Positions 9,639 through 9,740 of a stretch of 64,000 nucleotides of DNA are shown piece by piece. A model generated the notes under the pieces. The model was not told the DNA's origin and did not search any database. It was given only the letters and a program-made list of their open reading frames with translations. Positions within the stretch are counted from its first letter, which is position 1; each line of letters begins with the position of its first letter. The DNA comes from Eledone cirrhosa (lineage: Eukaryota). Made by a program: the position numbers and the translations under genes. The stretch covers positions 124,434,001 through 124,498,000 of the forward strand of contig OZ024743.1 in assembly GCA_964016885.1 (NCBI GenBank), read 5' to 3'.

Positions 9639-9740
9639 GTCCCAATAGCTTATTTTAGTTATTGCTCGCACCAACCTGAGGTATATGATTTTTAATGCGA
9701 TGAAATACCAATGATGGTTGGCAAATCACTGATGAGGGAC
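9639..9740 (+). ncRNA. Permuted, pseudoknotted hammerhead-like RNA with kink-turn, copy 1
   Basis: GTCCC-hairpin-TCGCA-CCAACC-TGA-GGTA-TA-TGATTT-ttaaTGCGAt-GAAA-TACC-AAT-GA-T-GGTTGG-cAAATCA-CTGATGA-GGGAC; covaries with copies at 49005 and 54642. Confidence 0.7.

What the first reader, a model, noticed from the sequence alone, without database searches (positions are those of the whole stretch)
9639..9740. Candidate new ribozyme architecture: non-circularly permuted hammerhead core caged by pseudoknots and a kink-turn
Seen: three diverged copies, each exactly 102 nt (9639-9740 +, 54642-54743 +, 49005-49106 -). All keep CUGAUGA, GAAA and the A15.1-U16.1 pair with an AUA site. The strand order is III-UH-I, then GAAA-III, then I-CUGAUGA. 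Established: hammerhead types I, II and III are circular permutations of one strand order, and this order is none of them. Covarying helices: stem I TGATTT/AAATCA, TGATCTT/AAGATCA, TGGCCCT/AGGGTCA; stem III GGTA/TACC vs GGCA/TGCC; outer helix CCAACC/GGTTGG vs CCAGCC/GGCTGG; upstream hairpin CAATA/TATTG vs CAACG/CGTTG. Between stem III and the outer helix every copy has tandem GA/GA plus a variable 3-nt bulge (AAT, ATT, TGG), which fits the kink-turn consensus. Stem II appears replaced by long-range TCGC/GCGA and GTCC/GGAC pairings (the latter imperfect in copy 2). Inference: the K-turn folds stem III back to join the tips of stems I and II, giving a closed cage that standard HHR pattern searches would miss. 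Predicted cleavage is after 9685.
Basis: partly seen in the sequence, partly recalled or inferred. Interest (0 to 1): 0.95.

Follow-up and report, generated by a model that had tools for sequence, protein, structure and literature searches.

The report
Caged rearranged hammerhead in Naiad retroelements
A self-cutting RNA motif (hammerhead) with its parts in a rare rearranged order occurs in about 20,000 copies in a parasitic repeat of this animal genome, and the same fold appears at the tail of Naiad jumping genes, which were reported to lack the usual hammerhead; cutting itself has not been tested.

Summary
The three 102-nt copies, their helices and the site after 9685 are as described. The strand order is not new: it is type SGC, shown to cleave by Eckert et al. 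2023 in metatranscriptome RNAs. Three things are new. (1) Fold: stem II shrinks to at most one pair under a four-way junction, and a bent arm closes a cage; every helix shows two-sided changes across 22 subfamily representatives. (2) Setting: about 20,000 genomic matches, in non-coding 0.45-0.8 kb units that behave like Penelope-type retrozymes in (TA)n. (3) Origin: read by eye, 20 of 54 published Naiad consensus tails carry this cage, plain SGC or CSG hammerheads, although Naiads were reported to lack canonical hammerheads. Truncated copies tend to begin at or just after the predicted site (suggestive). The kink-turn is lineage-specific; other Naiads use bulges. Cleavage, circles and the mobilising enzyme are unshown: no RNA runs were available and Naiad genes found here are broken. 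The scan noted permuted hammerheads in Penelope-like elements on other DNA before (unchecked notes).

The parts
9342..9800 (+). Copy 1 of the non-coding repeat: 5'-truncated, flanked by (TA)n on both sides; family unit 527 nt
   Evidence: 96% identity to the tandem unit in L001; flanks
9639..9740 (+). Type-SGC hammerhead with cage, copy 1
9639..9642 (+). Helix a, 5' strand; pairs with 9737-9740 (half of the stem II replacement)
   Evidence: 2 of 4 pairs with two-sided changes, 86% of cells paired
9643..9664 (+). Hairpin b (9643-9650 with 9657-9664), between helices a and c in the four-way junction
   Evidence: 6 of 8 pairs with two-sided changes, 81% paired
9666..9669 (+). Helix c, 5' strand; pairs with 9697-9700 just before N11.1-GAAA (other half of the stem II replacement)
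   Evidence: 3 of 4 pairs with two-sided changes, 91% paired
9671..9679 (+). Helix d, 5' strand (9671-9676, pairs with 9716-9721), and the unbulged kink-turn strand (9677-9679)
   Evidence: 5 of 6 pairs with two-sided changes, 92% paired; A1n 22/22, G2n 15/22
9680..9691 (+). Block S: stem III strand 9680-9683, U16.1 9684, A17 9685, predicted cut after 9685, stem I strand 9686-9691
   Evidence: U16.1 20/22 and H17 21/22, not fixed by the search pattern; stems covary
9692..9696 (+). Linker from stem I to helix c, with an invariant UAA; candidate tertiary contact (inference)
   Evidence: 22/22 at three columns that the search pattern did not fix
9697..9709 (+). Block G: helix c 3' strand, N11.1 (9701), GAAA (9702-9705), stem III strand (9706-9709)
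9710..9721 (+). Bulged kink-turn strand (3-nt bulge 9710-9712, GA 9713-9714, 3b 9715) and helix d 3' strand
   Evidence: GA kept in 19,038 of 19,822 matches while the bulge varies
9723..9740 (+). Block C: stem I strand 9723-9728, CUGAUGA 9729-9735, N10.1 9736, helix a 3' strand 9737-9740
54198..54814 (+). Copy 2 of the repeat: a partial tandem of a little more than one unit (family unit 523 nt), ending in (TA)n
   Evidence: 82% identity to the unit in L044
54198..54221 (+). Broken upstream ribozyme piece of copy 2 (G block present, C block missing)
54642..54743 (+). Type-SGC hammerhead, copy 2; predicted cut after 54688
48947..49135 (-). Copy 3 of the repeat: strongly 5'-truncated, between TA runs (family unit 654 nt)
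   Evidence: 95% identity to the unit in L080
49005..49106 (-). Type-SGC hammerhead, copy 3; predicted cut after 49060

Best explanation
It is a self-cleaving hammerhead of the non-circular SGC order, in a caged variant, at the 3' end of a non-coding retroelement that descends from the tail of Naiad-type Penelope-like elements. Fold (shown by covariation; 3D inferred): the catalytic junction of stems I and III is normal. Stem II is at most one pair (10.1-11.1) stacked under a four-way junction of helices a, b and c. Stem III bends through a kink-turn into helix d, which joins helix c and stem I by one-nucleotide linkers. Two junctions are thus tied by three arms, which replaces the usual loop I/loop II contact. 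Function (inferred from hammerhead chemistry and from retrozymes): transcripts cut after A17, tandem units are released as 0.45-0.8 kb monomers, perhaps circularised by a host ligase. A Penelope-type reverse transcriptase/GIY-YIG nuclease supplied in trans copies them into (TA)n from a start point mostly 55-80 nt behind CUGAUGA. Copying stops at the cut end or runs through the junction, giving 5'-truncated, partial-tandem and inverted insertions (arrangements shown; mechanism inferred).
For: Covariation on 22 representatives (49-95% pairwise identity): 87.5% of cells paired against 73.3% shuffled, 26 of 35 pairs with two-sided changes, 0 of 500 shuffles as high, slid controls 31-45%. U16.1 20/22, H17 21/22 and linker UAA 22/22 were not fixed by the pattern. 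Type SGC cleaves at the analogous site in published tests. 19,822 + 720 pattern matches against 15 + 3 in controls. Non-coding pyrimidine-rich units, tandem spacing 445-685 nt in 11 cases. (TA)n targets, 5' truncation, partial tandems and inversions as described for Naiads. The 3' UTRs of Naiad_Obim and Naiad_Ovul have the same helices, kink-turn, 14-nt spacing and a near-identical hairpin-b loop (by eye). 5' ends: of 18 pattern-found loci truncated within 57 nt before GAAA, 13 begin within 22 nt (p 0.005; fresh sample alone 8 of 11, p 0.028). Three (L070, L497, both arms of L523) begin exactly at the first base after the predicted cut (junctions read by eye).
Against: No cleavage assay and no RNA data. 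The 10.1-11.1 pair fails in 6 of 22 and a normal stem II cannot form (2 of 22 at the third pair), so the core departs from every tested SGC ribozyme. Covariation is inflated by kinship: of 40 column pairs passing a blind filter only 15 are proposed pairs, the others being isolated and not stacking into helices. CUGAUGA, GAAA and the bulged-strand GA are invariant in the alignment by construction. The stricter 5'-end test (within 16 nt) is not significant as computed (5 of 11, p 0.20; 9 of 18, p 0.052), a first cruder version gave p 0.16-0.49, and AT-rich microhomology could bias junctions. Every Naiad coding match found in G000 is broken or fragmentary, and none is joined to a ribozyme. The Naiad parses are by eye.
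Confidence: 0.8

Rival explanations
1. The blocks cleave only between molecules or between tandem units. C of one unit, G of the next and S of a third give the ordinary cyclic order, as in dimer-acting minimal hammerheads of Penelope-like elements, so no cage forms in one molecule.
For: Tandem units are common (11 spacings; an array of nine). Covariation cannot tell pairing within a molecule from pairing between molecules. Three mutually crossing helices with 1-nt linkers may be strained. Dimer cleavage of Penelope-type hammerheads is cited in PMC10085705 (reference title only).
Against: Published SGC constructs with a single motif cleave during transcription. Helices a and c still replace stem II in any register. 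Solo copies are frequent, and the spacing inside the motif is fixed across subfamilies.
Confidence: 0.1
2. The fold is real but no longer catalytic. It is a binding or priming signal for the retroelement protein, or a kink-turn protein platform, that kept hammerhead-like words by descent.
For: Stem II is absent and 10.1-11.1 is mismatched in 6 of 22. Old copies with an altered core exist (L457, L462). Competing nested folds are predicted. The motif lies close to the fixed 3' end, where a protein would bind.
Against: Core words, U16.1 and a non-G at 17 persist while every helix has changed, across subfamilies here and by eye across phyla. Some truncated copies begin exactly at the predicted cut.
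Confidence: 0.08
3. The ribozyme reading holds, but the present-day carrier is a canonical Penelope/Neptune-type element (which has its own type I hammerhead), not a Naiad; the unit is an orphan of a dead Naiad that changed host enzyme.
For: At least 40 copies are 100% identical over 102 nt, so movement is recent, yet Naiad coding matches in G000 are broken or fragmentary; Craig et al. call cephalopod Naiads remnants. Long open reading frames of other Penelope-like types lie in the window and loci and also sit in (TA)n.
Against: The Naiad search used a stricter first look and may miss an intact or collapsed copy. No shared 3' tail with a canonical element was seen (L097).
Confidence: 0.35
4. 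It is a box C/D snoRNA-like retroposon: UGAUGA and CUGA are box C and box D, and the kink-turn is the usual C/D motif.
For: Weak Rfam hits to C/D snoRNAs at this place (25.2 bits against a gathering score of 65; 23.4 against 85); copy 1 has a U-U pair at 3b-3n.
Against: The D-like word lies upstream of the C-like word. The 3b-3n pair varies. Six covarying helices place the words exactly as a hammerhead core. No guide sequence was seen.
Confidence: 0.02

Closest known systems
Type-SGC hammerhead ribozymes (HRIMA-1 and variants; Eckert, Friedrich, Weinberg, Weinberg 2023, PMC10085705)
   Same: Block order site-GAAA-CUGANGA, full core, short linker after stem I, extra helices tying the stem ends, predicted cut after NUH.
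   Different: HRIMA-1 has a true stem II and a helix closing the C block. Here stem II is at most one pair under an a-b-c junction, and a bent helix d closes the cage. Published examples come from metatranscriptome, metagenome and RefSeq searches; the words octopus and kink occur neither in the main text nor in the text of the supplement, and Naiad, Metazoa and Acropora do not occur in the supplement text (figures not seen).
Naiad clade of Penelope-like elements (Craig, Yushenova, Rodriguez, Arkhipova 2021, PMC8557442)
   Same: (TA)n targets, 5' truncation, partial tandems, inverted 5' pieces; the 3' UTRs of Naiad_Obim and Naiad_Ovul hold the same cage about 65-75 nt before the 3' end (by eye).
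   Different: The window's element has no coding sequence. The paper reports no canonical hammerhead and flags only 'HHR_core' and 'HHR_half_core' words without a structure.
Metazoan non-LTR retrozymes (Cervera and de la Pena 2020, PMC7229834; Li, Clavereau, Pollet 2026 preprint 10.64898/2026.07.22.740005)
   Same: Non-coding tandem units with one hammerhead each, tied to Penelope-like elements.
   Different: Those carry type I hammerheads in 200-400 nt units with circles shown; here an SGC cage in 445-800 nt units, circles untested. A type I descriptor, as used in the preprint, would miss it.
Kink-turn motif (standard consensus; Kt-23 variant with A-U at 2b-2n, PMC2790904)
   Same: Three-nt bulge followed by G-A and A-G, with stem III as the canonical helix; U at 2n in 7 of 22 matches the Kt-23 exception.
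   Different: It sits inside a ribozyme stem. One search found no paper holding k-turn, hammerhead ribozyme, natural and retrotransposon together.
Pseudoknot-containing hammerhead (PK HHR; passage in review PMC12192606)
   Same: A pseudoknot takes over the role of helix II.
   Different: It is described there as a loop of helix II pairing with a stem-loop joined to helix I, with no non-circular order, third strand or bent stem III arm mentioned; only review passages were read.

Membership tests
Hammerhead ribozyme | Core CUGANGA, GAAA and NUH in correct relation to stems I and III | tested here: met
   (CUGAUGA and GAAA fixed by the pattern; U16.1 20/22 and H17 21/22 not fixed)
Hammerhead ribozyme | Stem II formed directly between the strands after A9 and before G12 | tested here: not met
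   First pair 16/22, second 9/22, third 2/22; replaced by helices a and c
Hammerhead ribozyme | Site-specific self-cleavage | not testable with these tools
   Only an indirect hint from 5' ends of genomic copies; no RNA run listed
Hammerhead types I, II, III | Cyclic block order C-G-S | tested here: not met
   Order is S-G-C; no Rfam hammerhead match at the three copies
Type-SGC hammerhead (HRIMA-1 and variants) | Block order S-G-C | tested here: met
Type-SGC hammerhead (HRIMA-1 and variants) | Conventional stem II plus a helix joining the other sides of stems I and II | tested here: not met
   it works like SGC but is not a member of the HRIMA-1 motif
Kink-turn | 3-nt bulge followed by G1b-A1n and A2b-G2n | tested here: met
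   All three window copies; 19,038 of 19,822 keep the bulged-strand GA; A1n 22/22, G2n 15/22, U 7/22
Kink-turn | Kinked geometry and L7Ae/Snu13 binding | not testable with these tools
   needs FRET, binding assay or structure
Non-LTR retrozyme | Non-coding tandem units with one ribozyme per unit | tested here: met
   (longest ATG frames 73-154 aa, in either direction of doubled low-complexity units)
Non-LTR retrozyme | Type I hammerhead | tested here: not met
   type SGC instead
Non-LTR retrozyme | Expression as monomeric linear and circular RNA | not testable with these tools
   no RNA holder listed; only contigs could be laid
Naiad Penelope-like element | (TA)n target, 5' truncation, partial tandem and inverted insertions | tested here: met
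Naiad Penelope-like element | ORF with N-terminal GIY-YIG nuclease and reverse transcriptase | tested here: not met
   The unit is non-coding; Naiad-like remnants elsewhere in G000 are broken and unlinked
Naiad Penelope-like element | 3' end homologous to an autonomous Naiad tail | tested here: inconclusive
   Same architecture and shared hairpin-b loop in Naiad_Obim and Naiad_Ovul, read by eye; their specific motif has 0 matches in G000
Box C/D snoRNA | Box C at the 5' end, box D at the 3' end, antisense guide | tested here: not met
   Words in reverse order; Rfam scores far below gathering

The most novel reading that the evidence does not exclude
Naiad retroelements are the main natural home of the mirror-cycle hammerheads (SGC and CSG). 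The caged, stem-II-less form is an old animal ribozyme subclass shared by ctenophores, cnidarians, crustaceans and cephalopods. In this lineage the bend became a true kink-turn, so cleavage of about 20,000 genomic copies is switched by a host kink-turn protein (Snu13/15.5K family) and yields circular RNAs that outlived their parent Naiad by using another enzyme.
Probability: 0.2. Interest if true: 0.95.

Novelty: new variant of a known kind. Interest (0 to 1): 0.82.

Why it matters
Non-circular hammerheads were known from a few hundred environmental sequences (583 SGC, two CSG). This places them in animal chromosomes at about 20,000 copies in one genome and, by eye, in Naiad elements of five phyla. 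It offers a direct, cheap-to-test answer to a stated puzzle: why a very successful clade of Penelope-like elements seems to lack the hammerhead that all others have. The cage shows that stem II can be rebuilt from a third strand, and it answers in kind the structural question Eckert et al. left open about how the tip of stem III reaches the stem I/II contact. Standard ribozyme scans of animal genomes would have missed this whole class.

Tried and rejected
Rfam: no hammerhead match at the three copies in the best 150 listed of 405 window matches, and none in a local scan. BLAST-type search of G000 with copy 3 returned nothing although a pattern found its family. The 3.3-kb array on C2 is not a Penelope array: it is a duplicated block holding one unit and the 3' end of an unrelated restriction-nuclease LINE. 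The 2.9-kb spacing in L094/L095 encloses an unrelated Penelope-like fragment on the other strand. Autonomous partner in G000: the octopus-Naiad ribozyme motif had 0 matches; a 26-nt back-translated RT motif had 0; a 20-nt version had 21 against 54 in the control, though some were true remnants. Protein searches gave 48 and 53 matches, all fragmentary or broken. Flanks of the fetched remnants held no linked ribozyme; the nearby copies inspected (L097, L127, L457, L460, L462) are separate insertions next to TA runs. RNA: no RNA holder listed; the four laid runs are contigs of unrecorded kind from one study and cannot show ends. A first 5'-end count was confounded by indels and divergence, a second by TA runs and inverted partners; one search is the version used. 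Alternative registers for position 10.1 (11/22) and 11.1 (7/22) fit worse than 10.1-11.1 (16/22). Pfam named none of five window/locus proteins above its cut-off. No cage or CUGANGA was seen by eye in the 3' ends of Naiad_Omin, Naiad_Adux, Naiad-1_Skow and Naiad_Ppla.

Full report
Observation. The three copies lie at 9639-9740 (+), 54642-54743 (+) and 49005-49106 (-) and align without gaps over 102 nt. A profile HMM and a covariance model built from relatives find these three and no fourth in the window. I name the helices a (ends of the motif), b (hairpin), c, d, and stems I and III. All are fully or almost fully paired in the three copies. The predicted cuts fall after 9685, 54688 and 49060. 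Rfam lists no hammerhead here. Nested folding gives weak z-scores; this is neither for nor against a fold with three mutually crossing helices.

The order is published. Eckert et al. 2023 (PMC10085705; read: abstract, introduction, methods, four results sections, first part of the discussion, term searches of main text and supplement text; figures not seen) split the hammerhead into blocks C, G and S. Types I-III are CGS, GSC and SCG. They found natural SGC (583 sequences), CSG (2) and GCS (1), and showed cleavage at the analogous site, loss in a core mutant and rescue of four stems, at 0.007-0.19 per minute for SGC. The window's order is SGC. Their SGC has a true stem II and a helix closing the C block. 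They note that some have the tip of stem III joined directly to that helix and leave the geometry open.

Copy number and covariation. G000 is a 3.0-Gb animal genome; the closest published elements are from octopuses, and I did not determine the species. Copy 1 has at least 40 exact 102-nt matches (40 of 898 candidates scored). Patterns spanning GAAA to CUGAUGA gave 5,231 and 13,807 matches with the kink-turn GA (controls 0), 19,822 without it (control 15) and 720 for a further group (control 3). From 47 clusters I aligned window copy 1 and 21 cluster representatives chosen by eye as full-length with the common spacing; truncated copies, chance hits, several old singletons and the shorter-linker group were left out. 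Result: 87.5% of 770 cells paired, 26 of 35 pairs with two-sided changes, 0 of 500 shuffles as high, slid controls 31-45%; every helix has two-sided changes. Against: kinship inflates this. A blind filter passes 40 column pairs, of which 15 are proposed ones; 9 of the 13 strongest are proposed, and the rest are isolated. The core words are fixed by the pattern, but U16.1 (20/22), non-G at 17 (21/22), A1n (22/22) and a linker UAA (22/22) are not. A conventional stem II fails (16, 9, 2 of 22 for the first three pairs).

The element. Flanks show a non-coding, pyrimidine-rich unit of 527, 523 and 654 nt for the three families, 67-77% alike over their aligned parts. Copies are variably 5'-truncated, often slightly longer than one unit, often with an inverted 5' piece, and bounded by (TA)n. 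The first TA run lies a median of 64 nt behind CUGAUGA in 130 copies, with a second mode at 10-19 nt; 11 tandem spacings are 445-685 nt, and an array of nine has about 720-800 nt. This is the insertion pattern of Penelope-like elements and the organisation of non-LTR retrozymes (PMC7229834, passages; 2026 preprint, first part and passages).

Link to Naiads. Craig et al. 2021 (PMC8557442; passages, section 6, supplement parts 1, 18, 19, 24, 25 and term searches) describe Naiads as (TA)n-targeting, lacking canonical hammerheads, with unexplained 'HHR_core' and 'HHR_half_core' words. I read their consensus tails by eye; nothing in this paragraph was computed. The a-b-c-d cage in SGC order is present in 11 entries: Naiad_Obim and Naiad_Ovul (GUA site, kink-turn, the same 14-nt spacing), Naiad_Esco (helix c weak), three near-identical Acropora entries, two cubozoan entries and one hydrozoan entry (assigned by file order, headers not seen), Naiad_EuTe, and Naiad_Bfor (stem I short). 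Outside the octopus entries the kink-turn is replaced by bulges of about 1-7 nt or by a side hairpin. SGC order with an ordinary stem II appears in 3 entries (two ostracod, with block S about 400 nt upstream; one chelicerate by file order). CSG order with clean stems and GUC sites appears in 6 entries, three Nippostrongylus and three assigned to nematodes by file order. That is 20 of 54. It is a floor, because CTGAAGA hits were seen for only 7 of 43 places and line breaks hide some. Four tails read whole showed nothing (Omin, Adux, Skow-1, Ppla). SGC, GCS and CSG are circular permutations of one another, so these are one mirror-cycle group.

What is missing in G000. Naiad-like coding sequence exists, but all 48 and 53 matches were fragmentary or broken (the second search used a stricter first look). 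None of the fetched remnants is joined to a ribozyme. Since some families are young, the enzyme that moves them now is unknown: an unseen intact Naiad, or another Penelope-type element.

Fossil hint of cleavage. If the RNA is cut, cDNA should often stop at or just short of the cut end, 16 nt before GAAA. I noticed this, fetched 60 new stretches from earlier match lists without regard to their 5' ends and scored them against intact relatives (80 of 82 new copies and 69 of 94 earlier ones could be scored). Most copies extend through the whole motif. Of 11 new loci truncated within 57 nt, 8 begin within 22 nt (p 0.028) and 5 within 16 nt as computed (p 0.20); with the earlier sample, 13 and 9 of 18 (p 0.005 and 0.052). 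TA runs add false matching letters, so some of the 17-22 values are really shorter. By eye, L070, L497 and both arms of the inverted pair in L523 begin exactly at the first base after A17. This is suggestive only: the sample is small, two cruder versions were unclear, and microhomology or stalling could contribute.

Mechanism. Shown: the sequence anatomy, covariation, copy number and insertion pattern. From established knowledge: the hammerhead core cuts after NUH, and SGC order is compatible with cleavage. Inferred: that all helices form at once as a cage in which the bent stem III/d arm replaces the loop I/loop II contact; that monomers are released and perhaps circularised; that a Penelope-type protein inserts them. 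The kink-turn fits the consensus in the window copies; 7 of 22 representatives have U at 2n, as in Kt-23 (PMC2790904, abstract).

Novelty. Searches for non-circular permutation + hammerhead, type-SGC, Naiad + ribozyme + Penelope, octopus/retrozyme/Penelope, permuted/Penelope-like/pseudoknot since 2022, k-turn + hammerhead + retrotransposon, rearranged + crystal structure since 2023 and stem variants gave no paper that reports permuted hammerheads in Naiads, in animal genomes, or with stem II rebuilt this way; the library lacks most subscription journals. Earlier notes of this scan mention rearranged hammerheads in Penelope-like elements and twisters in Naiads on other DNA; I did not check them, and they are not counted as support. 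Verdict: a real, probably active ribozyme; a new structural variant of a known kind, in a new and biologically telling setting.

Noticed in passing
window 1956-2027 (-): A conventional type I hammerhead with a GUC site (Rfam HH9, 38.9 bits, below the gathering score of 52), next to an assembly gap; both hammerhead orders occur in one window.
   Followed up: partly
window 25348-27078 (+) and 14053-14745 (-): Open frames resembling Penelope/Poseidon-type reverse transcriptase pieces by recalled motifs; Pfam gave nothing above cut-off.
   Followed up: partly
window 46809-47342 (-) and 63004-63732 (-); L031:6729-7616 (-): 3' ends of restriction-nuclease-type LINEs (recalled motifs) beginning in TA-rich repeats.
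   Followed up: no
window about 9935-10000 (+) and 48750-48940 (-): A common short interspersed repeat lies just downstream of copies 1 and 3 and recurs in L462; ARAGORN calls no tRNA in the window.
   Followed up: no
window 42441-42655 and 1219-1295: Long near-perfect palindromes, of the kind left by inverted 5' ends of Penelope-like insertions.
   Followed up: no
L117, L120, L123 and relatives (part of 720 matches): An older subfamily with a 2-nt shorter linker, GUU or GUC sites and an asymmetric loop instead of a clear kink-turn; left out of the covariation alignment.
   Followed up: partly
L457 and L462 (element-strand positions 5130-5234 and 888-990): Two related copies keep the helices but have an altered CUGAUGA, possibly a lineage that spread or decayed with a dead core.
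   Followed up: partly
L068, L070, L073, L078, L086: A subfamily lacking one base after CUGAUGA has a canonical G10.1-C11.1 pair and a shifted helix a.
   Followed up: partly
L247: about 230-345 (+): One of 120 metagenome pattern matches has full stems I and III, a hairpin and a possible helix c in the right places but no helix d; chance or an eroded copy.
   Followed up: partly
PMC8557442 supplement, 3' end of Naiad-1_Skow: A different structured-looking tail without CUGANGA; earlier scan notes report twister-like folds in Naiads of other animals.
   Followed up: no
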